This document shows positions 19,915 through 31,413 of a stretch of 55,727 nucleotides of DNA, piece by piece; the first letter of the stretch is position 1, and each line of letters begins with the position of its first letter. The position numbers and the translations under genes were made by a program. The notes under the pieces are model-generated. The model had not been told where the DNA came from, did not search any database, and saw only the letters and a program-made list of their open reading frames with translations. Source of the DNA: a virus; the UHGV virus genome UHGV-0036148. One strand, given 5' to 3'.

Positions 19915-20568
19915 ATGGCAAATAAAACACCTCGCGCAATAGGAAGAATAGTTCATCGTTTCGACACTGATATTCCAAGTTTTGAAGTAACAACGTTTTT
20001 AAGCTATTACGATTTTGGTACTGAGTATTACGCAGGATCTAAGGTTGGCGGCGAGAGTTATACGCTGATGGCTAATACGTGGAGTTTTGTGCGCTACTCT
20101 GAAAAGGATGATGACGGTATGAACAAAGAAAGCGAAATCATTGATGAATTGATCGAAGATGAGCGCCATGATTGCGAGATGCAACCGGAAAAAACGGAAT
20201 GGCGGGCATGTGAAAAACCTCCGGTTGGCGTGTGGCTTGATTGCGTAGGTCTTACGAGCGGAACGGTTCTCGATGTCGTTAAATTTAAGTATATCGGCGA
20301 TAATTGGGCTATCGCTCACAGTAAATTAGTATCAGACATGGAAACAGCAATATCATGGGAAAAATACTCTTACCGCATTCACATTGACCAGAAGGAAAAG
20401 GCGCTCGCTGAAATCGCGTTCGCACTTGCCACTAAGGTAATGGGTGAAGACGCGGCAAGCGAGATTGACTTTAGCTGTGACAACGATTTTACGTGCGATT
20501 ATCGCAATATGGCGCGAGCTATTATTGTTGGATGTATCGGACACGTTGAATACACGGGGAAAAGATAA
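19915..20568 (+). CDS. hypothetical protein (217 aa)
   Basis: ORF in operon; no recognisable motif. Confidence 0.4.
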   Translation: MANKTPRAIGRIVHRFDTDIPSFEVTTFLSYYDFGTEYYAGSKVGGESYTLMANTWSFVRYSEKDDDGMNKESEIIDELIEDERHDCEMQPEKTEWRACEKPPVGVWLDCVGLTSGTVLDVVKFKYIGDNWAIAHSKLVSDMETAISWEKYSYRIHIDQKEKALAEIAFALATKVMGEDAASEIDFSCDNDFTCDYRNMARAIIVGCIGHVEYTGKR

Positions 20569-20786
20569 TGGATAAGATCGGCACAATTCTTATTAATCGT
20601 GAACAAGTGCAAAAAATGTTAGGCGGGCTTAGTAAGTCAGCATTTTTTAAACTGGTTAAAAAATGGAAGGATTCAGGTACTCCATTCCCTGAACCCGTTA
20701 AGGGGATGCCAGCGTTAAAGCGCGGCGGATATCTTTACCGTTATCAGGATGTTATTTCATTTTGTAAGTCAATGGGTTTCATGTAA
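20568..20786 (+). CDS. AlpA/excisionase-family small DNA-binding protein
   Basis: INREQVQKMLGGLSKSAFFKLVKK...PFPEPVKG pattern resembles AlpA/Vis-type HTH; convergent with integrase. Confidence 0.5.
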   Translation: MDKIGTILINREQVQKMLGGLSKSAFFKLVKKWKDSGTPFPEPVKGMPALKRGGYLYRYQDVISFCKSMGFM

Positions 20787-21958
20787 TAATCAGCCAGCTT
20801 ATTCATCGCCTCTATTTGTTCCCTCACATAGTCATACTGATCGTATATAGCAAACATCCCAGCCAGCTTATGCCCCAAAACCTTTTCCGCAACGTGAGGC
20901 GCAACGCCAAGCGCTGAAAGGTTTGTTCTCACGGTGCGGCGTAGATCGTGACACGACCACGACTCGCCGCCCATCCTTATCATTAAATCCCTCGCTGCTG
21001 TTTTCGGTACACTTCTGTCCACTGCTTCATCCCTTCCAGAAAGCACAGGAACGAAGACAAAATCAAAGCTATGCAGATCCATAGCCTCGCGCAATAAAGC
21101 TACGCTAACGTCTGATAAACCGCGTTTAAACTCGTTCCTGTTCTTACTCAATGCACCTGGCACCGTCCACACACAGCTATCAAGATCGAAATGCTCGCGC
21201 CTTGCGTTTGTCAGTTCGCTTGTTCTACATCCGGTGAGTATAATCAGCTTCATCAATATCTGGTTCAGCCGCGCCATTTTTGAACTGTCTATAAGGCTGA
21301 TTAGATGGTGAATCTCTTGTATTGACAAAACGCGTTTCCTTTGCGCCGGGTTTTTGCCTACATCTTTCACACGTAGCAATGATATGTCGTCACGATCCAC
21401 GCGGCGGCGGCGCATGGCGTACTTTATTACCGCCTTCATTCTGTTGAGAACTATCCCTGCCTGAACTGGTGCGCCACCACTGGCTACCTTTCTAAAAACC
21501 CCCTCCCACATCATAGCGTCCATATCATCGACTATATAGCTACCGTATGGTTTTATGACGTGCTTATCTAGCATGCCCTCAACCTGCTTATAATTGACCA
21601 TGTTCCTTGCCTGCGGCGATTCCATGTACTCCCTTACAATATCCTCAACCGTTGCCCGTGTCGTAACGCGGGAAAGGTGCATTCTTTTTGCTACCGATGG
21701 ATCTCGACCTGAGTTTAGCACTTCCTTATGCTCCGCCACCGCCGCCCGCGCTTCCTTGAGTGTTATTTCTCCGTATGTTCCTATCTTCATCCGTCGAGGC
21801 TTGCCGTTGAATCGGTAGCGATACTGGAAGGATATAACTCCTCGCGGGCTTATCCTGGCAGACAATCCGCCAGCGTCCGGTACTTCTTTCGGGCCGTCGT
21901 ATGGCTTGCCGTGGATGTTTCGTAATTTGGTATCTGTAAGCATAATTTTGGTCACCAT
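20744..21958 (-). CDS. int: tyrosine integrase
   Basis: C-terminal catalytic region HDLRRT...LGH...Y; ATG at 21958 (longer upstream-extended frame exists). Confidence 0.85.
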   Translation of the reverse strand: MVTKIMLTDTKLRNIHGKPYDGPKEVPDAGGLSARISPRGVISFQYRYRFNGKPRRMKIGTYGEITLKEARAAVAEHKEVLNSGRDPSVAKRMHLSRVTTRATVEDIVREYMESPQARNMVNYKQVEGMLDKHVIKPYGSYIVDDMDAMMWEGVFRKVASGGAPVQAGIVLNRMKAVIKYAMRRRRVDRDDISLLRVKDVGKNPAQRKRVLSIQEIHHLISLIDSSKMARLNQILMKLIILTGCRTSELTNARREHFDLDSCVWTVPGALSKNRNEFKRGLSDVSVALLREAMDLHSFDFVFVPVLSGRDEAVDRSVPKTAARDLMIRMGGESWSCHDLRRTVRTNLSALGVAPHVAEKVLGHKLAGMFAIYDQYDYVREQIEAMNKLADYYMKPIDLQNEITS

Positions 21959-22256
21959 TTGGTACACACATTTTACGCATGGATAGTACCACGATAGAAA
22001 ACGATATGACACGATAGAATAAATATTTCTTTTAAAATCAAGGTGAAGAGGTAACGATGTGACACGATGTGAAATGATAGAAATGGCACTATCCATTTAT
22101 CTTTTGAATGGGTGGACTAACGAAAAACTGATTTATATTCAACATCTTATGCTTTGTTTTTGCTTTTAATTTATCGATTTGGTCACAATTTGGTACACAA
22201 AAAGAAACGAGGCGTTAGCCTCGTTTCGCGCGGCGATGTTCTTCGCACATCACCTC
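21944..22256. other. attP-like region with direct repeats and clustered short repeats
   Basis: 22-bp direct repeat TTTGGTCAC(C/A)ATTTGGTACACA at 21947 and 22188; multiple ACGATAG/GACACGAT repeats between. Confidence 0.4.
22214..22238 (-). terminator. rho-independent terminator downstream of tail fibre gene
   Basis: minus strand AAACGAGGC-taac-GCCTCGTTT followed by CTTTTTG. Confidence 0.5.
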
Positions 22257-25200
22257 TTATTCTTCGCTTCCGGTCAACTGACTGATAAGCGCTTCAAGTT
22301 TTGCTATCCGCTCATCCATTGCTGCAATGTTAGCTTTCAGGCTTGCGTTCTCCTCTTCCAGTTCAGTGACGCGGTTATCCGTTTCGCGTGCCACCTGGAC
22401 AAGTAAACCAGTCACCGCCGCATAGTCAACATTAAGGTAACGTGTTTCTTCTCGTAGCTCGTTGCCGTCAACGGTCGGACCCTGCAATTCATTACCGTAA
22501 CGAGTAAACGATCCTACGGCTTCCGGTAGCGCCTCCATTACTTCCTGTGCAATAACGCCAGCATAAGGAAGGCCGTTTTCCCTGAGCGTGTAGGTGTACC
22601 CGTTCATTTTGCGGATTGATTCAGTGGCTTCACCTATAACCTGAATGTTATCTTTAAGGTCGCGGTCAGATGATTGGTGAAGTGTCTGGCATGTGATATT
22701 ACCGCTAACATCAAACATTTGACCTGATGATGTTTTTTGTGCATAAAACAGGTATCCGGCAGATGTTCCAACCTCAAAAACGTTTTGTCGATCACTTGAC
22801 CCCCAGACCCTGATGCTAACTGGCAGTTCTGAATTACCTGAATTAAGTAAAGCAAAACGACTGCCCGTCCCTGCTTGTTTTCTAATTACTAAATCGGCAG
22901 TTGAGTTAACCTCATCTTTGTTGATGGTTAGCGCCTGTTTTGTAGCACCTTTGACAGTACCACTTAGTAATTGAACTGCGCCGTCGTCGCCATTTAACAG
23001 CACTTGAGCGCTGCTTCTGTGGTTTTTCAGGAACAACATTTTGCCTGTGCTTTCTGATGTGCCTACCGACCACGCCGAATTGGTTCCAGTGCTATCAACA
23101 CCGCGTACAGTACAATTCATCGCGCTATAATCTGACGTACTTCCAAGTACATCAACGCGCCCGCCACCTAATTTTGATGGAGCCGCCGAGGTTAACGACC
23201 TGACGGTTACATCCTGATTTCTTCCTGAAACAACAATCTGACTCCATGCAGACCAGTTACCATTTTCACAATAGCGAACGTATATTTGTTTCGTGTCTGT
23301 GCCAACAAGGGTTTGCAAGTTTGTATAATCTGAATCCGTGATCTTACGAATTGACTCTACACGAAGCAAAAAGTTGCCGCCTACGCCGTCAGGCTTATTG
23401 GTAATATTTGCACCGCCTCCGGCAGTTCTGCATTGATAGTATTTAACTGACCCTTTATCTGTGCCTTTTATGGTCAGATTATTAAGATCAACAGCCACTT
23501 CAGAAATGCTTTCAGGCTCAATTGCTCCCGCCATACCTGCGTTAAATGTGGCAAGGTCAGAAAAGGTTGTTTTGCCGCCTACCGTTACCCCGCTATCGAG
23601 TATTGCTTGTGTAATTACTTTGCTGTTTTTTGTGTGGTCAGAATAACTACCAAAATACAAATCACCGTCACCAGCTATACCCAGGTATTTTTGATCAACA
23701 TCATCAACCTTAAACCCAATGGACAAGTTTTTAATTGTGTTGTTGCGCGTTAAAACCAAAGGCGTATGCTGAGATCCTTTGATGCTTACCGTAGTGTTAT
23801 CGGAACTGGTGCTTGTGTTTGCAAATTCTGCGGTGGCTCCGCTGATTTTGTAAGTTACTTTTAGATCGCGGGCCTCAACCCTCCCGTCGTGGCGAACAAT
23901 AAGATCCCCTCCTGTTACGCCTTTTGCGTTTTTGGCCCTGATGCGAACTTCGCCAAGCGTATCAGTATTTGCAGGCGCCCAAACAATGCCGCGCTCACTA
24001 TCATCGTTATTATAAAACCGCAAAGCTGCGATTCCATCGACTGCCCGCAGGAAGACTGACGGTGTACCTTTTTTGATTGTCAAGTCACCGGTCATTGTAT
24101 CGCCGGTTTTTTTTACCTGCGCATCGTTAGTTACGTTACCAAGTCCAACGTCCGATTTCGACGGCTTATTTTGGGTTCCGTATAGCTCATTAATGGCATA
24201 AGTGCCGCTGTTGAGTCCAGTATCGTTACCAGCGAAAATCTTGACCCTGGCATTTTCGTATTCGATATTAATCGCTGACCACGTATCACCGCACCGCGAG
24301 AATATACCAGAACCGTGGCTATAAATGGTCGCCGTGCTTCCGGTCGGCCTATCACCGCGCCAGAAATGACCACCTTTGTCACGCAGAGCTTTTAATAGTT
24401 CTGTATTGCTCATCTTGCCGTTTGTTGCTATCCCGCTACCGCCAAGACCGAAAGCGCCTGTAAGCATAGCATTAGAAAGGCCCAGATCTGCCTTGCTGGG
24501 TTTGTTTACCTGGTCGTAAATCCTTGCTGCTGGGCTTTCAATATATCCAGCGGGTGCGTCGGCTTGCTTAACAAATCCTTCAGGAATGTATAATTCCGTG
24601 TTGCCAGTCTGCGCCAGCACCGCTACTTTTGTGTTTTTAATATAAGATCGCTGGTAGCACCAGACCTCGATATAGCCGTCACCTTTAACCAGGCCGTAAC
24701 ACATTTGACTATTATTGGGAAGGTTTGGTGAACCGAGTCGGCGAATACTTAAAAATTTAGATATATTTTCACTGGTTACTTCGCCTGTGTCGTTAAGACC
24801 TCGAGCGGAGATCTCTATAAAGTCAATATTCCCGTAACTTAAACCGTAGCCACCGCCATTTGTAACCATTAGCGTTAAGTGGCAGTCTGATGACTTTGGA
24901 TCGCTAAGTTTAGCAATCTTAACGTAAGCGCCATTACCGCTAGTTTCAACAGGCCAAGCACATTGGACCATTGGGCTGGTAAGCCTTCCCATTTGATTCA
25001 GATATTCTTGCGCCCTGTCCTCTGATGTTTTGGCTTTGGTTTCGCTTGTTTTCGCTGCCGTCTCGCTTGCCTTAGCGTTGGTTTCTGATGTTTTCGCTGC
25101 CGTGGCGGATTTTGCAGCCGCTGTTTTTGACGCTTCTGCTGCGTTTTTGTCGGATCCTGTTTTTTGAGCGTTGGCGGTTGATTTGGCTGTTTCTGCGCGA

Positions 25201-25577
25201 ATGTTGGTAAGAAGCTGATCCAACTGACCTTCGCCGCCAAAATCTTCCCACCACTCGACAGCGGAGGCGATTTCTGTTTCCTTGCCCTGGTAGTAACGCA
25301 GGGTTTCAGCTACGTCCTGAGCAAGCCCATCAACTGAGATCGAGTCAGATAGCAGGATGCTGAATTTTGTCCCGGCAGGGATGGCGGGGTTAGCCGCTGG
25401 CGTCACTGACAGTTCAGTGCCGCTTTTAATTTCTGTGATGGTAAAGATCTGTACCGGATTGCCAACAGCAATGAGCGTGCAACCTACACGAATAAGAGAA
25501 AGCGGCGCGGAAAAGTTTGTTCCCGTGCCTTTAACAGTATTGCCGTTAATGGCAACTGTTCCAGTTGTGTAAATCAT
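22257..25577 (-). CDS. tail fibre protein with C-terminal intramolecular chaperone (S74-like) domain
   Basis: 1106 aa; Ala/Lys/Thr low-complexity linker; C-terminal SDRDLKDNI...GYTYTLRENG...GVIAQE motif typical of autocleaving chaperone domains. Confidence 0.8.
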   Translation of the reverse strand: MIYTTGTVAINGNTVKGTGTNFSAPLSLIRVGCTLIAVGNPVQIFTITEIKSGTELSVTPAANPAIPAGTKFSILLSDSISVDGLAQDVAETLRYYQGKETEIASAVEWWEDFGGEGQLDQLLTNIRAETAKSTANAQKTGSDKNAAEASKTAAAKSATAAKTSETNAKASETAAKTSETKAKTSEDRAQEYLNQMGRLTSPMVQCAWPVETSGNGAYVKIAKLSDPKSSDCHLTLMVTNGGGYGLSYGNIDFIEISARGLNDTGEVTSENISKFLSIRRLGSPNLPNNSQMCYGLVKGDGYIEVWCYQRSYIKNTKVAVLAQTGNTELYIPEGFVKQADAPAGYIESPAARIYDQVNKPSKADLGLSNAMLTGAFGLGGSGIATNGKMSNTELLKALRDKGGHFWRGDRPTGSTATIYSHGSGIFSRCGDTWSAINIEYENARVKIFAGNDTGLNSGTYAINELYGTQNKPSKSDVGLGNVTNDAQVKKTGDTMTGDLTIKKGTPSVFLRAVDGIAALRFYNNDDSERGIVWAPANTDTLGEVRIRAKNAKGVTGGDLIVRHDGRVEARDLKVTYKISGATAEFANTSTSSDNTTVSIKGSQHTPLVLTRNNTIKNLSIGFKVDDVDQKYLGIAGDGDLYFGSYSDHTKNSKVITQAILDSGVTVGGKTTFSDLATFNAGMAGAIEPESISEVAVDLNNLTIKGTDKGSVKYYQCRTAGGGANITNKPDGVGGNFLLRVESIRKITDSDYTNLQTLVGTDTKQIYVRYCENGNWSAWSQIVVSGRNQDVTVRSLTSAAPSKLGGGRVDVLGSTSDYSAMNCTVRGVDSTGTNSAWSVGTSESTGKMLFLKNHRSSAQVLLNGDDGAVQLLSGTVKGATKQALTINKDEVNSTADLVIRKQAGTGSRFALLNSGNSELPVSIRVWGSSDRQNVFEVGTSAGYLFYAQKTSSGQMFDVSGNITCQTLHQSSDRDLKDNIQVIGEATESIRKMNGYTYTLRENGLPYAGVIAQEVMEALPEAVGSFTRYGNELQGPTVDGNELREETRYLNVDYAAVTGLLVQVARETDNRVTELEEENASLKANIAAMDERIAKLEALISQLTGSEE

Positions 25578-26034: not shown

Positions 26035-29000
26035 TTATCCTGAGAATGAACCAGAACCGCGCGACACTATGACTGTCGGCGAATTTATATAAGCCCCCTT
26101 GTCATTTTGAGCAGATACCTTAATTTTAACTGTAACGCCCCTGCTGGTTACTGCTGCTGAATGCATAACAAGGCGCTCCGTGCCATCCAGTGCTGAATCT
26201 TTTGATGAACCGCCGATTGTTATTGTGCAACCACCAAAACCCTTAACGTTAGCCATAACGCAGATATGTCGGCTATACGCTGCGTCAGATGTGTCATTGT
26301 ATGTTATTACTTTTTCCAGCATCCCATCCCTTAACGTGCTAACGTCAGAACCTGTGTACATGTTTGCAACATCACCGATAAAGGTTTTCGCCTCAAGTGA
26401 ACCGGTAAACTTGCCGCTGTCTGCATGTATTTCACCCCTTACAACAACGTTGTTAAATTCTGATGCGCCGCTTTGTGTTATCCTCCAACCATTGGAACCG
26501 GGGACGAAGTTTGCTGATTTAATTTCATTGACAATTTTAGCCATAGTAATAGAGGCATCTGCAATTTTAGCTGTCCCTATTGATGCATCCTTAATAAATG
26601 CCTCTTTCACATACATTGCGCCGTTAGTGACATAGAAGGGCGATGTATATGCGCCGTTTGCCGCCGTCATTAACACGAAGCGGTCAACAAGGAAAATGCA
26701 CTGCGACTGAAAGTTAGTGCCATCACCAGTCAGGCCAAGCGACATACCTGTTGCGTATTTCATGCCGTTGTTGTCGGTGGCGAGCTTGATTGAATATGTC
26801 GCATCAACATTACCCCTAAAGTCGGTTAACGCTTTAGATGTCGTCTCTATTGCTGTCTTATTCCCGTTAACGGTAACTGTTAGCTGATCAATTTTCGTTG
26901 ACAACGCCTTATCTGCTGTAGCCATTGCCTGCGACCATTCTGTAATGCTTGAGTTTACCGATTCGAAAGACGCTGAGATCTGGCTAAATTTTTCTGCGCT
27001 TGATTCCTCATGCGTAGAAAGTGCCGTTGATACTTCAGACACTTTTGAATTGATCGTACTGGTAAGCGATGCGCTAAGGCCGCTTATTGCGTCTGCGCGT
27101 GCTTTTGTTTCGTCGGCGATGGCTTTGTCCATCCTGGTGACGTTGCTTGTCACTTTATTATCAAGCGTGCTGACACTTGCGCTAACTTCGCTGATAGCTT
27201 GTCCTCTGGCGCTTGTTTCGTCAGCAATTGCCTGATCAAGACGGTTTACGCTGGCTTCAGTCTTCTTATCAAGATTAGTGATCGATGCGCTTACCCCGCT
27301 AATGGCTTCCGCTGTTGCTTTTTTCTCTTCTGCCACAACGTTGTCAATGCGGTCGATTTTCGCGTTGGTTTCCCTGATTCCTTTCTTGTATTGGGCAGAA
27401 AGAGTAACACGCGTGTTGGTTTGAGCGATTGAGTTATTGATAAGTGCAATAGATGCGTTTTGCAGGCTTGCTTTTGCCTGATTTATTTCGTCGCTGTTTT
27501 TGCCAACATTATTTTCAACAGTGCCAAGATTTGCGCTGAGTCCTGATATTGCTTGTGCGCGGGCGCTTGATTCATCGGCAATTGCCTGATCAAGACGCTT
27601 AACGCTGGCGTTTGTGCTGTTCTCAAGCGTTGTTAAATCTGCTTTAACCTCTGTTATTGCGTCGCTTCTTGCCTGCGTTTCATCTGCTATTGCTTTATCA
27701 AGACGGGAAACGCTCGCGTCGGTTTTTCTTTCTAGACTGTCTATTGAGGCGTTCACGCCACTGATTGCTTGTGCGCGTGCGCTGGCCTCGTCAGAAATTG
27801 CCTGATCAAGTCTGCTTACTTCTGATTTGGTGTTGCTTTCAAGTGTGCTAATACTTGCATTCACGCTGCTGATAGCGTCAGTGCGTGCCTTCGTTTCGTC
27901 AGCAATCGCCTTATCAAGACGATTAACGTTACTTGTGACCTTACCGTCAAGTGTGGAAATTGACGCCTTCACACCGTTAATGGCTTCAGTTCTCGCGCTC
28001 GTCTCGTCTGCTATTGCCTTATCAAGACGGCTTATACTTGAGTCAGTTTTCTTGTCGAGAGCTGATACCGAGGCGTTTACTCCACTAATAGCCTCGCTGC
28101 GGGCGCTTGTTTCGTCTGCAATAGCTTGATCCAAACGTTTAACGCTGGCGTCAGTTTTCTTGTCAAGTGCTGAGATATTTGCGTTAACGTCGCTGACTGC
28201 CTGGGTGCGTGCGCTTGTTTCGTCGGCGATAGCTTGATCAAGGCGGTTAACGCTGGCGTCAGTTTTCTTGTCAAGATTGCTTATTGAGGCGTTTACACCG
28301 TTAATAGCTTCAGCGCGTGCGCTGGCCTCGTCAGCTACTGCGCGTTGCACGCTAGAAATCTGACCTTTGAGGTTTGAATCCATCGTATTCATTTCTGCCG
28401 TGATGGTTTTCAGTGATTCCGCTGTCGCTTTTTTCTCTTCAGCGATAACGTTGTCAATACGGTCAATTTCCGCTTTAGTCTCTGTCCTGCCTTTCTTGTA
28501 CTGAGCGGTAAGAGTTACGCGCGTGTTTGTCTGTGCAAGTGAGTTATTAATAAGAGCAAGTGACGCGTTTTGCATGCTTGCTTTCGCTTGCGCCAGTTCG
28601 CTGCCAACTTTTTCGCTGGACACTTCTAATGAATCAATTCTTGACTCATGCTGACCAATATCATCGGCGTTTTCCTTAACTTTTTTATAAAGATCTTCTG
28701 TTTCTTTTTTTAGCGTATCTGTATCAGCTTTTATTGATCCTGTTTCTGTAATCAGGTTGTCAGTATCATTTCTTAAATCTTCGGTTATGTTAGTCAGGTT
28801 GTCGGTTTCAGTTCTTAAATCGTCAGTTATGTTGGTCAGATTATCAGTTGCAGTTTTGAGGTTGTCGGTAGCTGCTTTTAGTTCATTTGTGGCATTTTCA
28901 ATAACATCCGTGCGATCACCAAGATCTTTGATGTCACCAATCATTTCCTTGAACTGTTCTGAGTTCATCACGTCTTTGGTGACGTAATCGCTGATTTCAT

Positions 29001-31413
29001 CAAAATTCTCTGTCGGCTTACCTGATGCCTCCACAAAGTCAGACACGCCAAAAGCATTGCGTGTGCGCACATAAACGTAATAGGTGTGCCCCGTGTTCAT
29101 GCCGCCAAAAGTCCACTGATGACCACGCCCGGTATATTGTGCCTTAGTGGTTACTGATGCCGGATCGGTGATCTGTTTTTCACCTGAGTAATAAAACTCA
29201 TAACTGGTGTCAGTGGTAAGCGTTGTTCTGCTGATCGGGTAAACTGTAGCCTGAAATACACCGGGAACCCAGTTAACTCCTACCGGGGCCGCTGGTGCAC
29301 CAATAACCAGATCCACAATACTTTCTGCACCCTTCATGCCCGTGTCATTTCTGCCACGGATGCCTAATGAGTAGGTTCCCGCATCAATGCCATAAAAATC
29401 ATAACTGTAATTAGTAGTTTCGTAGTATTTAACTACTGCCCCCGCTGAATTGTATACGCGGATTTCAAAGGTCAGGCGATGAGTTGTCGTCAGTGTTTCC
29501 CATGTTGCGCGGCATTGAACTGTTTCAGATCCAATGTTTAACACCTTCAGGTTTTCAATGTTCGGCACGCGGAAGTGATTAAGCGTATCGTTGTTGACCT
29601 CAAAGATTGCGCCATTATCAACTACAGCCTGTTTGTGCGGGTCATGCTGTGATGCCTCGATCGTGTACACGCTGTTATTTTCTGTTTCTGCCACACTGAT
29701 AATTCGACACAATACGGGTTTTGCCGCGTTAGTTGACACAGCAAATACAGTACCGTTACGAATCCACGCCGGGGCGGATGCAAGGGTAATTTTGTTTCCG
29801 CTAACTCCGGTGATCTGGTGTTTTTTAAATTTGCCGTCACTATCAAGCAGGCTAATGGTGTCGCCAGGGGTGATATATTCAGAATCAACCTTATCGACAG
29901 TGATAACCCTGCCATTGTTTGCCACGATACGACCACCTAGACGGGCGCCAGCGCGGTTATTGTCGAGTATCTCGATAATATCACCAGGGGTGAAGTGAAT
30001 TGCGTCACGGGCCATTTTAAACGTGAATTTAGACGGCTCGCGTTTTGCTGTTTCTATCAGCCATTTGCCAGCGCGGTACGCTTGCCCGCGTGACGTGCAC
30101 CCGAACGCCTCCAACGTGGTTTCGTTATAACCATCGCGGGCGATTAGTTCATCATCTGCCACGTATTCTTTTGATTGCTCCCAGCCGTTTTCCGGGTCAG
30201 TCCATGATACGATCACGGCGTTGTAACACTCTGCAAGCGGAAGACTTGAGCGAGTAAACGCGCCATCAACGACGTTTGCGTTTGTGATGGTGGCAATTGG
30301 ATCCTGTGGTGCATCAATCATCACGGTAAGGCGTTGCCCGTCCCATAACGCGATACCACGGAACATACCTGCAATGTTATCCAGTAGGTCGCGGGCGCTC
30401 ATTTGCTCCGTAATGTAAGCGTTAAGCGTCATGCGAGGTTCAAGGCCACCATAGCCATCATCAACCAACTGATCGCAGTATTGGGAGAGCACGTACAAAG
30501 CGCCATCATCAACATCAATGTAACCAGCATGTTTAGCAAGCCCGAAGCGCTCGTTTTTAACCAGATACCGGAAAATCCACGCAGGGTTATTGGTGTACGC
30601 TTTTTTGAATCCGCCAAGCCATAAACCAGAATACGCGCGCGTTTCTGTGTTGTAGTTATCAGGAACATCAACAATCAGGCCGCGAAGGTGATAGGTACGT
30701 GTAGGCGTATCAGTATATTGATCGTGGTCAATTACCGCGCCAGCTACAGCGGTATGAGGATAAGACAGGTTATCGTCAATTATTTCGCTGTAACTACTCC
30801 ACCGCGTATCATTCCTCAATAGATCGCCGTTGCTGTCTGGTGTTACGCGACGAACGCGAATATCAAATGGTTTTTCATCCGGCGCTTTAATGATGTGAGC
30901 TTCCAGATATTCACCACTTTGCTTGCCGGGGCCAATGTGTATATCCTTAATCAGCGACCACGTAGAAGATAATGACGGTTTAACATCAACCATCAACATG
31001 ACAGATGTATTGTACTGGTTGCCCTTTTCATCTGACTGGACTAGAGCATCGACACCAAGATTTAACCTGACACGGGTAACGTTTGGATCTGAAACAGTCC
31101 TGATTATTGGTGTGTCGTGAGTTACCTTTGCGTTGACAATAACGGTTGATTCGATGGCATTAAAGCCATTAATCGGCGATTGGTCAGCCGTGCCGTTGCG
31201 CCAGGCTACACTAATCCCGGGGATTGATGTATTCCCGTTTGCGTCAGTAACAGGTGTGTCATTAAGCATCACGTCATTCAGTGGCGCTTTCTGGTTTACC
31301 GGACCGTATATCGGCCCTTCACTGAGAATGTCTAAAACACGATAAAACTGTTTGTGATACAGGTTATCGTTCAATAATGTTGGTGTTTTGGCTTTGCCGC
31401 CGCCGCTACTCAT
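26035..31413 (-). CDS. J: host specificity / central tail fibre protein J with expanded repeat region
   Basis: N-terminus MSSGGGKAKTPTLLNDNLYHKQFYRVLDILSEGPIYGPV parallels lambda J; 1792 aa with about ten 35-aa tandem repeats. Confidence 0.9.
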   Translation of the reverse strand: MSSGGGKAKTPTLLNDNLYHKQFYRVLDILSEGPIYGPVNQKAPLNDVMLNDTPVTDANGNTSIPGISVAWRNGTADQSPINGFNAIESTVIVNAKVTHDTPIIRTVSDPNVTRVRLNLGVDALVQSDEKGNQYNTSVMLMVDVKPSLSSTWSLIKDIHIGPGKQSGEYLEAHIIKAPDEKPFDIRVRRVTPDSNGDLLRNDTRWSSYSEIIDDNLSYPHTAVAGAVIDHDQYTDTPTRTYHLRGLIVDVPDNYNTETRAYSGLWLGGFKKAYTNNPAWIFRYLVKNERFGLAKHAGYIDVDDGALYVLSQYCDQLVDDGYGGLEPRMTLNAYITEQMSARDLLDNIAGMFRGIALWDGQRLTVMIDAPQDPIATITNANVVDGAFTRSSLPLAECYNAVIVSWTDPENGWEQSKEYVADDELIARDGYNETTLEAFGCTSRGQAYRAGKWLIETAKREPSKFTFKMARDAIHFTPGDIIEILDNNRAGARLGGRIVANNGRVITVDKVDSEYITPGDTISLLDSDGKFKKHQITGVSGNKITLASAPAWIRNGTVFAVSTNAAKPVLCRIISVAETENNSVYTIEASQHDPHKQAVVDNGAIFEVNNDTLNHFRVPNIENLKVLNIGSETVQCRATWETLTTTHRLTFEIRVYNSAGAVVKYYETTNYSYDFYGIDAGTYSLGIRGRNDTGMKGAESIVDLVIGAPAAPVGVNWVPGVFQATVYPISRTTLTTDTSYEFYYSGEKQITDPASVTTKAQYTGRGHQWTFGGMNTGHTYYVYVRTRNAFGVSDFVEASGKPTENFDEISDYVTKDVMNSEQFKEMIGDIKDLGDRTDVIENATNELKAATDNLKTATDNLTNITDDLRTETDNLTNITEDLRNDTDNLITETGSIKADTDTLKKETEDLYKKVKENADDIGQHESRIDSLEVSSEKVGSELAQAKASMQNASLALINNSLAQTNTRVTLTAQYKKGRTETKAEIDRIDNVIAEEKKATAESLKTITAEMNTMDSNLKGQISSVQRAVADEASARAEAINGVNASISNLDKKTDASVNRLDQAIADETSARTQAVSDVNANISALDKKTDASVKRLDQAIADETSARSEAISGVNASVSALDKKTDSSISRLDKAIADETSARTEAINGVKASISTLDGKVTSNVNRLDKAIADETKARTDAISSVNASISTLESNTKSEVSRLDQAISDEASARAQAISGVNASIDSLERKTDASVSRLDKAIADETQARSDAITEVKADLTTLENSTNASVKRLDQAIADESSARAQAISGLSANLGTVENNVGKNSDEINQAKASLQNASIALINNSIAQTNTRVTLSAQYKKGIRETNAKIDRIDNVVAEEKKATAEAISGVSASITNLDKKTEASVNRLDQAIADETSARGQAISEVSASVSTLDNKVTSNVTRMDKAIADETKARADAISGLSASLTSTINSKVSEVSTALSTHEESSAEKFSQISASFESVNSSITEWSQAMATADKALSTKIDQLTVTVNGNKTAIETTSKALTDFRGNVDATYSIKLATDNNGMKYATGMSLGLTGDGTNFQSQCIFLVDRFVLMTAANGAYTSPFYVTNGAMYVKEAFIKDASIGTAKIADASITMAKIVNEIKSANFVPGSNGWRITQSGASEFNNVVVRGEIHADSGKFTGSLEAKTFIGDVANMYTGSDVSTLRDGMLEKVITYNDTSDAAYSRHICVMANVKGFGGCTITIGGSSKDSALDGTERLVMHSAAVTSRGVTVKIKVSAQNDKGAYINSPTVIVSRGSGSFSG
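27150..28420 (-). repeat. tandem ~105-bp coding repeats within J
   Basis: recurring gcttgtttcgtc(a/g)gcaat(t/a)gc(c/t)tgatcaag...aacgctggcg units; protein repeats LDxAIADETSAR... Confidence 0.7.

What the first reader, a model, noticed from the sequence alone, without database searches (positions are those of the whole stretch)
21944..22256. attP-like region: 22-bp direct repeats flanking clustered ACGATAG/GACACGAT repeats next to the integrase
TTTGGTCAC(C/A)ATTTGGTACACA occurs at 21947..21968 and 22188..22209. Between the copies are several copies of CACGATAG, GACACGAT(A/G) and ATGATAG, resembling arm-type integrase or accessory-factor binding sites. The first repeat copy overlaps the integrase start, leaving the true int start uncertain. 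I could not find a tRNA-like core by eye.
Basis: seen in the sequence. Interest (0 to 1): 0.45.

Follow-up and report, generated by a model that had tools for sequence, protein, structure and literature searches.

The report
Phage attachment site (attP) beside integrase

Summary
The "attP-like" interpretation is correct.

The window is a coliphage of the published mEpimmI group, with a type II integrase that inserts at abgT. Comparing it with prophage junctions in E. coli genomes and with an empty K-12 site puts the crossover core at 22090-22105 (TATCCATTTATCTTTT). That is between the two 22-bp repeats, and it matches the 3' end of abgT rather than a tRNA.

- **22-bp repeats:** each is a tandem pair of 11-bp TTTGGTnACnA units. 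The same pair sits next to the int start in every integrase relative examined, down to 29% identity. It occurs in both arms wherever an intact attP was available. I read these as arm-type integrase sites.
- **ACGAT repeats:** there are two clusters of three, spaced 10 bp apart, with the clusters 63 bp apart. They occur only in the int-proximal arm and change with the integrase/RDF allele. They are probably sites for the adjacent 72-aa excisionase-fold protein, and they overlap a likely int promoter.
- **int start:** int begins at 21943, 4 nt from the repeat, so the repeat does not overlap the coding sequence.

This is an ordinary heterobivalent attP. Interest is low.

The parts
20744..21943 (-). 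int: 399-aa tyrosine integrase with an N-terminal arm-binding domain
   Evidence: Pfam Arm-DNA-bind_3 (res 2-87, E 2e-20), Phage_int_M and Phage_integrase. It is 93-96% identical to mEp010/013/044-type integrases. The start at 21943 is supported by the homology extent, the RefSeq orthologue length and non-triplet indels just upstream.
20568..20786 (+). 72-aa winged-helix protein, the probable recombination directionality factor (excisionase). It is convergent with int and overlaps its 3' end.
21947..21968 (+). Int-proximal arm: a tandem pair of 11-bp units (TTTGGTCACCA TTTGGTACACA), the proposed arm-type Int sites. It also covers the int ribosome-binding region.
   Evidence: It is conserved as an island next to the int start in mEp021 (a different core) and in all relatives down to 29% Int identity.
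21983..21991 (-). Candidate extended -10 of the int promoter (TGgTACTAT). A weak -35 (GTGTCA) lies at 22012..22007.
   Evidence: My own relaxed scan. In relatives the only variable base of this block is the 'n' of TGn. mEp021 has TGTTAATAT at the same distance from the pair. The tool's standard sigma-70 scan found nothing. This is a prediction only.
21990..22019 (+). Inner repeat cluster 1: three 10-bp units (CACGATAGAA / AACGATATGA / CACGATAGAA)
   Evidence: In type II relatives the ACGAT cores are kept while the 3' half of the unit varies.
22053..22082 (+). Inner repeat cluster 2: three 10-bp units (AACGATGTGA / CACGATGTGA / AATGATAGAA), 63 bp (about 6 helical turns) from cluster 1
   Evidence: These repeats are absent from the other arm and have no cluster elsewhere in the window.
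22090..22105 (+). attP core (TATCCATTTATCTTTT). Strand exchange occurs within TTATCTTTT (22097-22105). CCAT...ATGG (22093-22096 / 22108-22111) form the inverted core-type half-sites.
   Evidence: Four-way alignment of attP, attL, attR and empty attB. Lysogen matches end exactly at 22105. attB has the equivalent CCAC-N11-GTGG (read).
22137..22149 (+). IHF-like site (ATTCAACATCTTA) in the tail-fibre-proximal arm. A second weaker one lies at 22167-22179 (-).
   Evidence: One mismatch to WATCAANNNNTTR. In relatives the WATCAA and TTA parts are kept while the NNNN varies. This is a consensus match only.
22178..22199 (+). Tail-fibre-proximal arm: the second tandem pair (TTTGGTCACAA TTTGGTACACA), proposed arm-type Int sites
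   Evidence: It is invariant in all type II relatives. It is also present in mEp021, L068 and (degenerate) L070, at 230-241 bp from the first pair.
22204..22227 (-). Intrinsic terminator of the tail-fibre gene (22257..25577, -). It marks the outer boundary of attP.
   Evidence: 10-bp stem followed by TTTTTGT.

Best explanation
Positions 21947-22199 are the complete attP of a temperate mEpimmI-group coliphage with a heterobivalent, P4-like tyrosine integrase.

Shown: strand exchange with the host takes place in TTATCTTTT, within the 16-bp core at 22090-22105. The core matches the 3' end of E. coli abgT, and integration cuts 27 codons off abgT.

Inferred, well supported: the two 22-bp direct repeats lie about 143 bp and 88 bp from the core centre. 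Each is a tandem pair of arm-type sites bound by the integrase N-terminal Arm-DNA-bind_3 domain. Integrase protomers would bridge arm and core to build the intasome, as in lambda.

Inferred, moderately supported: the six 10-bp-phased ACGAT repeats in the int-proximal arm all face the same side of the helix. They are sites where the 72-aa excisionase-fold protein encoded next to int polymerises head to tail. That would bend the arm for excision.

Inferred, weakly supported: the int promoter must lie in this arm, because in a lysogen nothing else reads into int. Integrase and RDF bound there would then repress int, as in KplE1 and P4.
For: - **Core and junctions:**. Twelve genomes carry the same attL. 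AbgT truncation is shown.
- **Published context:** type II integrases of mEp010/013/044 integrate at the abgT 3' end (PMC11893012).
- **Integrase domains:**
- **Arm-type assignment:**
  - The pair is statistically unique in the window.
  - It is present in both arms of the window, MagusPhagus, mEp021, L068 and L070, with 230-241 bp spacing.
  - In mEp021 the core and inner repeats differ, but both pairs are kept (20/22 and 19/22). The left one is an island inside diverged sequence.
  - A tandem (T)TGGTACACA or ATGTACACA pair lies next to the int start in Atlantibacter, Citrobacter, Xenorhabdus, Morganella, Mixta, Pantoea, Aeromonas and Acinetobacter relatives.
  - The Int N-domain is 46-73% identical where the middle domain is only 18-39%.
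  - The mutationally tested arm-site consensus of IntS of ICEMlSymR7A is TGKTGGTATC, which shares TGGTA (PMC11963761).
- **RDF assignment:**
  - The fold matches excisionases.
  - The gene is syntenic with int.
  - The inner repeats are confined to one arm, spaced 10 bp apart in triplets.
  - The inner motif changes with the RDF recognition helix: SKSAFFKLVKKW with ACGATRG, SRGTFYSWRKKW with GAACGGAT, SRTTFYRKRKEW with GAAACRG.
- **Module coherence:** two attP-deleted contigs also carry a frameshifted 72-aa ORF, and one has a truncated int.
- **Promoter:**. The KplE1 precedent is in PMC2951348.
Against: - No binding, footprint or recombination data exist for this phage.
- The assignment of the two repeat classes to Int and RDF could be the other way round.
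- The RDF/inner-repeat co-variation is confounded. The relatives that share an RDF helix also share the same core and Int type, so it amounts to about three independent data points.
- The window protein has no Pfam excisionase hit.
- The standard promoter scan found no sigma-70 site.
- No IHF-like site was found in the long int-proximal arm, so how that arm bends during integration is unexplained.
- The right-hand pair abuts a conserved terminator, so part of its conservation could be hitch-hiking.
Confidence: 0.8

Rival explanations
1. The roles are swapped. The ACGAT repeats are the arm-type integrase sites, and the 22-bp repeats are operators for the RDF or another regulator, for example to control int expression.
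For: Arm-type sites of other integrases also occur as phased direct repeats. The left 22-bp copy lies over the int ribosome-binding region and just downstream of the candidate promoter, a natural operator position.
Against: The ACGAT repeats are in one arm only, whereas arm-type sites normally flank the core. They are replaced by other motifs in relatives whose Int N-domain stays about 70% identical. The 22-bp motif tracks that domain down to 29% overall identity. The tested IntS arm consensus TGKTGGTATC resembles the 22-bp unit, not ACGAT.
Confidence: 0.12
2. The 22-bp repeats are target-site duplications or ends of a 231-bp inserted element. Contigs L010 and L022, which carry a single copy, would then be the ancestral empty site.
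For: L010 and L022 contain exactly one repeat copy and nothing between int and the terminator.
Against: The interior holds the functional core proven by lysogen junctions. An int gene without an attP has no function. The two-pair layout with the same 230-241 bp spacing exists in distant relatives with unrelated interiors. L010/L022 also carry a frameshifted RDF gene, and L022 a truncated int, so they look like derived, decaying variants.
Confidence: 0.03
3. The phased ACGAT repeats plus the A/T-rich stretch are iterons and an unwinding element of a replication origin.
For: Six 10-bp-phased direct repeats lie next to a T-rich tract at 22150-22177.
Against: They sit between a proven recombination core and the int start. 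They are split from the A/T-rich tract by integration. They change together with the int/RDF module in mEp021. The phage's replication genes (helicase, then ninB) lie in a separate module upstream. There is no initiator gene next to the repeats.
Confidence: 0.03
4. The inner repeats serve only to regulate int transcription, through binding of Int, the RDF or a host factor at the promoter, and play no part in recombination directionality.
For: Cluster 1 overlaps the candidate -35 and extended -10. In KplE1 both IntS and TorI repress intS through sites in attL (PMC2951348).
Against: Cluster 2 lies 40-70 bp upstream of the candidate -35 and directly abuts the core. That is the position of Xis/RDF sites in characterised attP sites. 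In known systems the same sites serve both roles, so this is more a sub-case than an alternative.
Confidence: 0.15

Closest known systems
att site 'motif II' / type II integrase of mEpimmI phages mEp010, mEp013 and mEp044 (PMC11893012)
   Same: The integrase is 93-96% identical. The gene order is the same (ninB ... 217-aa ORF, 72-aa ORF, int, att, tail fibre). The integration locus is the same, the 3' end of abgT next to ogt.
   Different: The paper maps the insertion locus and core motif only. Its text does not contain 'attP', 'arm-type' or 'excisionase'. The arm repeats, inner repeats and RDF candidate are not described there. The window's core differs from K-12 attB at one base (T for C at 22097).
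Bacteriophage lambda attP (P1-H1-P2-X1/X1.5/X2-F-H2-COC'-H'-P'1-3)
   Same: It is about 250 bp long, with arm-type direct repeats on both sides of a short core. Accessory-protein repeats lie in only one arm, between the arm sites and the core. There is an IHF-like site in the other arm. The integrase is heterobivalent. The lambda layout is from established knowledge; the window layout is.
   Different: The integrase belongs to the Arm-DNA-bind_3 (P4-like) clade, not the lambda clade. int faces away from attP with its 5' end next to it, so its promoter lies inside attP. There are two triplets of accessory repeats instead of one. No IHF-like site was found in the long arm. The attB is inside a protein-coding gene, which integration truncates.
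KplE1/HK620 IntS-TorI module and satellite phage P4 Int-Vis (PMC2951348)
   Same: These are P4-like integrases whose genes start next to the att arm. The int promoter overlaps Int arm-type and RDF sites, and int and RDF are transcribed separately.
   Different: Int is only distantly related (about 30% to the nearest characterised phage integrases such as phi80 and Stx phages). The arm motif differs: IntS P' sites share TAAA, while here it is TTGGTACACA. The RDF gene is convergent with and adjacent to int rather than at the other prophage end (the KplE1 layout is my recollection). Regulation has not been tested here.
ICEMlSymR7A IntS/RdfS attP (PMC11963761)
   Same: The attP is 283 bp with five arm-type motifs of consensus TGKTGGTATC, which shares TGGTA with the unit here. 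The wHTH RDF oligomerises head to tail and binds attP upstream of intS. RdfS is the second-best structural match of the 72-aa protein.
   Different: That element is an ICE of Mesorhizobium inserted in a tRNA gene. Its RDF gene is far from int, and no RdfS consensus motif was found there. Here the candidate RDF sites are sharply defined 10-bp repeats.

Membership tests
attP of a heterobivalent tyrosine integrase (lambda-type site-specific recombination) | A short core is identical in attP and attB and is present at both prophage junctions | tested here: met
   TATCC(A/G)(C/T)TTATCTTTT is found in attP, attL, attR and the empty K-12 attB. 13 listed lysogens break at window 22105.
attP of a heterobivalent tyrosine integrase (lambda-type site-specific recombination) | The adjacent integrase has a separate N-terminal arm-binding domain plus core-binding and catalytic domains | tested here: met
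   Pfam Arm-DNA-bind_3, Phage_int_M and Phage_integrase.
attP of a heterobivalent tyrosine integrase (lambda-type site-specific recombination) | Repeated arm-type motifs, unrelated to the core, lie on both sides of the core | tested here: met
   Tandem TTTGGTnACnA pairs at 21947-21968 and 22178-22199. The same layout is seen in mEp021, L068 and L070. This is met at sequence level only.
attP of a heterobivalent tyrosine integrase (lambda-type site-specific recombination) | The integrase N-domain physically binds the arm-type sites | not testable with these tools
   This needs EMSA or footprinting. The indirect support is co-conservation of the motif and the N-domain.
attP of a heterobivalent tyrosine integrase (lambda-type site-specific recombination) | A small RDF/excisionase binds direct repeats in one arm | tested here: inconclusive
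attP of a heterobivalent tyrosine integrase (lambda-type site-specific recombination) | Host bending-protein (IHF) sites lie in the arms | tested here: inconclusive
   Two one-mismatch matches to WATCAANNNNTTR occur in the short arm and none in the long arm.
mEpimmI type II integrase / abgT attachment (PMC11893012) | The integrase clusters with mEp010/013/044 | tested here: met
   93-96% identity by DNA and protein comparison, against 51% to type I mEp021.
mEpimmI type II integrase / abgT attachment (PMC11893012) | Integration occurs at the 3' end of abgT | tested here: met
   Lysogens of close relatives have the abgT 5' part at one end and the abgT 3' remnant plus ogt at the other. Integration of this exact phage has not been observed.
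KplE1/P4-type self-regulated integrase gene (promoter inside the att arm) | The int 5' end abuts the att arm, so its promoter must overlap the recombination sites | tested here: met
   The int ATG is at 21943 and the core at 22090. In the lysogen only the 146-bp arm and the abgT remnant lie upstream of int, and the flanking host genes read the other way.
KplE1/P4-type self-regulated integrase gene (promoter inside the att arm) | A mapped promoter, and repression by Int and RDF | not testable with these tools
   Only a weak extended -10 candidate was found, and the standard scan was negative. This needs 5' RACE and reporter fusions.

The most novel reading that the evidence does not exclude
The tandem (T)TGGTACACA / ATGTACACA pair next to the int start is a conserved arm-site signature of a whole clade of Arm-DNA-bind_3 integrases, from enterics to Aeromonas and Acinetobacter. 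It could be used to find attP arms, and hence element boundaries, directly from sequence. In the same architecture, two in-phase triplets of RDF sites might replace IHF in folding the long arm. The direct-repeat pairs also make the attP interior prone to precise deletion, producing non-integrating phage variants such as L010/L022.
Probability: 0.3. Interest if true: 0.35.

Novelty: new member of a known kind. Interest (0 to 1): 0.2.

Why it matters
The result closes the finding. The region is a genuine attP, the true core is located (a protein-coding target, which is why no tRNA-like core was visible), and the int start is fixed.

It adds annotation to a recently described and apparently common group of gut coliphages. 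That annotation covers the arm sites, a candidate excisionase and a candidate int promoter. It also gives a simple sequence signature, the tandem TTGGTACACA pair, that marks the arm in a broad integrase clade.

Nothing here challenges the current understanding of site-specific recombination.

Tried and rejected
- **Standard promoter scan:** the sigma-70 scan of 21700-22500 found no promoter. Only my relaxed scan gave weak candidates.
- **Sequence-family searches for the 72-aa ORF:** Pfam found nothing. PHROGs gave only a generic 'DNA binding protein'. PDB sequence search gave nothing meaningful. The large protein database returned only close relatives of 75-99% identity, named 'helix-turn-helix'. 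Only the fold comparison was informative.
- **Independent co-variation test through P0013:** P0013 is a 78-aa homologue of the 72-aa ORF with nearly the same recognition helix. It sits in a prophage remnant next to eutA (probably CPZ-55, from memory), with no adjacent int, no ACGAT clusters and no GGTACAC motif. This was a dead end.
- **RNA features:** Rfam and tRNA scans of the region were negative, so there is no RNA gene or tRNA-derived core.
- **Literature search for the arm motif:** searching for TTGGTACAC together with 'integrase' returned nothing.
- **Degenerate 11-mer pattern:** TTTGGTMACNA with 1 mismatch was not enriched window-wide. The signal is the exact 22-mer pair and its position, not the loose pattern.
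- **Long ORF across attP:** the 450-aa ORF 20744..22096 that runs through attP is a mechanical artefact of the ORF list.
Full report
**Observation.** The 22-mer TTTGGTCACCATTTGGTACACA is at 21947-21968. Tandem Repeats Finder shows that each copy is about 2.1-2.2 copies of an 11-nt unit. Thirty first-order Markov simulations of the window produced no direct 22-mer pair with at most one mismatch. The only other such pairs in the real sequence lie inside one repetitive tail gene. The exact unit TTTGGTACACA occurs nowhere else in 55.7 kb.

Between the copies, ACGATRKRA occurs at 21991, 22001, 22011, 22054 and 22064, with a degenerate sixth unit at 22074. That makes two triplets with exact 10-bp spacing, whose first units are 63 bp apart. 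Five ACGAT in 100 nt has a Poisson probability of about 4e-8. The repeats are therefore real and non-random.

**Context.** The window is a temperate coliphage of the mEpimmI group. The region is 89-94% identical to phages MagusPhagus, mEp010, mEp013 and mEp044.

The minus-strand ORF ending at 20744 is a tyrosine integrase with Arm-DNA-bind_3, Phage_int_M and Phage_integrase domains. Its start is ATG 21943 (MLTDTKLRN...), for three reasons:
- The Pfam arm domain aligns from residue 2.
- The RefSeq orthologue is 399 aa.
- Relatives have 1-2-nt indels between this ATG and the repeat, which is incompatible with coding sequence.

The repeat therefore lies 4 nt upstream of int and does not overlap it. 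The 450-aa ORF in the mechanical ORF list is an artefact.

On the other side, the 1106-aa tail-fibre gene ends at 22257 and is followed by an intrinsic terminator at 22227..22204. The second repeat copy starts 5 nt beyond the terminator stem.

**Where integration happens.** In E. coli genomes, 13 of the 30 listed records match the int side of the window, and every one of them stops at window position 22105.
- In strain 2017C-4173W12 the sequence continues there into a 99-nt abgT 3' remnant and then ogt.
- About 54 kb away, the abgT 5' part is joined to sequence that matches the window from 22106 onward, including the second repeat and the terminator.
- Twelve genomes share that second junction, while about 4900 genomes have the uninterrupted site.
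- Aligning attP, attL, attR and an empty K-12 attB shows a common TATCC(A/G)(C/T)TTATCTTTT.

In the lysogen, the polymorphic bases left of TTATCTTTT stay with their parent, bacterial in attL and phage in attR. The sequences diverge immediately right of it. Exchange therefore takes place within TTATCTTTT.

In the window the core is 22090-22105. It is flanked by the inverted half-sites CCAT...ATGG, which correspond to CCAC...GTGG in attB.

Integration replaces the last 27 codons of abgT with an immediate stop. The phage does not restore the gene.

The locus agrees with the published mapping for type II mEpimmI integrases (PMC11893012).

**The 22-bp repeats.** They lie about 143 bp and 88 bp from the core centre, giving an attP of 253 bp, similar in extent to lambda's (lambda's extent is from established knowledge). 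The comparative evidence is as follows.
- **mEp021.** This phage has a type I integrase (51% identical) and a different core in ydaM. It keeps both pairs, 20/22 and 19/22 identical and 241 bp apart. Everything between them is different. The int-proximal pair is an island of identity inside diverged sequence.
- **Intact attP sites in distant viral contigs.** L068 (Int 32% identical) has TTTGGTACACA pairs 234 bp apart. L070 (44%) has one good and one degenerate pair about 230 bp apart.
- **Every other relative inspected.** All have a tandem pair or triplet of (T)TGGTACACA or ATGTACACA just upstream of int. These are Atlantibacter, Escherichia sp., Citrobacter, Xenorhabdus, Morganella, Mixta, Pantoea, Aeromonas and Acinetobacter, down to 29% identity.
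- **Exact-motif scan.** Of 32 viral contigs found by the exact tandem motif, 11 have an Int homologue in the held sequence. In 10 of these it starts within about 40 bp of the motif, and in L068 about 295 bp away.
- **Domain conservation.** The Int N-terminal 70 residues are 46-73% identical in these relatives, while the middle (core-binding) domain is only 18-39%. PMC11893012 makes the same point for the four mEpimmI integrase types.
- **A tested precedent.** The arm-site consensus of IntS of ICEMlSymR7A, whose five sites are all required for efficient integration, is TGKTGGTATC and shares TGGTA with the unit here (PMC11963761). That IntS is a P4-type integrase is my recollection, not something I tested.

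Together these make arm-type integrase sites the best reading, with a probability of about 0.8.

**The ACGAT repeats.** They occur only in the int-proximal arm, between the pair and the core. The 63-bp offset is six helical turns, so all six units face the same side of the helix.

In type II relatives the ACGAT cores are conserved while the 3' half of each unit drifts. In other integrase types the equivalent position holds other phased repeats. mEp021 has GAACGGAT. The Atlantibacter, Citrobacter and Xenorhabdus group has two clusters of GAAAC(A/G)G.

Its predicted recognition helix differs between the three groups that have different inner motifs. Those groups also differ in core and integrase type, however, so the co-variation is confounded.

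By analogy with the lambda Xis microfilament and with RdfS and BldC head-to-tail oligomers, I propose that each triplet binds three protomers and bends the arm for excision. I put this at about 0.55.

**int promoter.** In a lysogen only the 146-bp arm separates int from the host, and the flanking host genes read away from it. int must therefore be transcribed from within the arm. The standard scan found nothing.

A relaxed scan gives an extended -10 candidate, TGgTACTAT, at 21991..21983. In relatives the only variable base of that block is the unconstrained base of TGn. mEp021 has TGTTAATAT at the same distance from the pair.

If this is right, the pair lies just downstream of the transcription start and cluster 1 lies over the -35 and -10. 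Int and the RDF would then repress int, as shown for KplE1 intS and noted for P4 (PMC2951348). This is inference only, at about 0.4.

**Other arm.** ATTCAACATCTTA (22137-22149) is one mismatch from the IHF consensus. Relatives keep its specified positions while the NNNN varies. No comparable site exists in the long arm, so how that arm folds during integration is open.

**A natural deletion.** Two viral contigs from one metagenome (L010, L022) have int, one copy of the 22-bp repeat and then the terminator. The 231 bp between the repeats are precisely missing.

In both, the 72-aa ORF is frameshifted after about 16 codons, and in L022 int is truncated to 354 aa. I read this as deletion between the direct repeats followed by decay of a now useless recombination module. 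That fits the 72-aa ORF belonging to the module.

It is a single lineage, however, and the frameshift lies in an A-run that could be a sequencing error. The opposite reading, an empty site for a 231-bp insertion, is rejected. The interior carries the proven core, and the two-pair layout recurs around unrelated interiors.

**Rivals.**
- Swapped roles for the two repeat classes: 0.12.
- Inner repeats serve regulation only: 0.15. This is really a sub-case of the main model.
- Insertion element with target duplications: 0.03.
- Replication origin: 0.03.

Details and refutation tests are given in the rival entries.

**Comparison and novelty.** This is an ordinary heterobivalent attP. The insertion locus and core motif are already published for sister phages. 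That paper does not describe the arms, the inner repeats or an excisionase, and I found no paper citing the arm motif.

The layout works like lambda attP. In gene arrangement it is closer to the KplE1/P4 type, where int reads away from the arm that holds its promoter. I classify it as a new member of a known kind, with low interest (0.2).

The modest extra value is the clade-wide arm-site signature and the natural attP deletion.

Noticed in passing
L010 2380-2503 and L022 2380-2503 (equivalent to window 21944-22204): Two IMG/VR contigs from metagenome 3300045988 lack exactly the 231 bp between the two 22-bp repeats, with one copy left. They also carry a frameshifted 72-aa ORF, and L022 has an int truncated to 354 aa. 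They are probably integration-defective derivatives made by deletion between the direct repeats.
   Followed up: partly
window 22097-22108, with L005 488-586: Integration replaces the last 27 codons of abgT (…PYPLIF|LVVWLLMLLAWYLVGLPIGPGIYPRLS) with an immediate TGA. Unlike many phages that target gene ends, this one does not rebuild the 3' end, so lysogens carry a truncated p-aminobenzoyl-glutamate transporter.
   Followed up: partly
window 26035-31413 (-), especially 27218-28440 and 27959-28323: The 1792-aa tail gene contains a 108-nt (36-codon) tandem array of about 3.4 copies. It holds all the other 22-mer direct-repeat pairs in the window. A 42-nt repeat lies at 28752-28855.
   Followed up: no
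L077-L080 2501-2737: A 78-aa homologue (about 79% identical) of the 72-aa excisionase-like protein is very common in E. coli (about 1000 or more contigs). It sits in a prophage remnant next to eutA, probably CPZ-55 from memory. It has no adjacent integrase and none of the attP repeats.
   Followed up: partly
window 19915-20568 (+): A 217-aa ORF whose stop overlaps the start of the 72-aa ORF (ATGA) has no Pfam or PHROG match. It is conserved in mEp021 (mEp021_03). It could be a further component of the recombination or early-left module.
   Followed up: no
L026 about 1930-1965 (upstream of int), L034-L043 about 1900-1945: The arm motif varies in copy number and period. Atlantibacter has three TTTGGTACACGA units with a 12-bp period. 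Acinetobacter relatives have ATATGTACACAG/ATATGTACATAA, plus two copies of TTGTTGAACTTTGAAA about 115 bp apart as the inner repeats.
   Followed up: partly
window 25026-25085: A 21-nt tandem repeat (2.9 copies) lies inside the tail-fibre gene, in the alanine/lysine-rich region of the protein.
   Followed up: no
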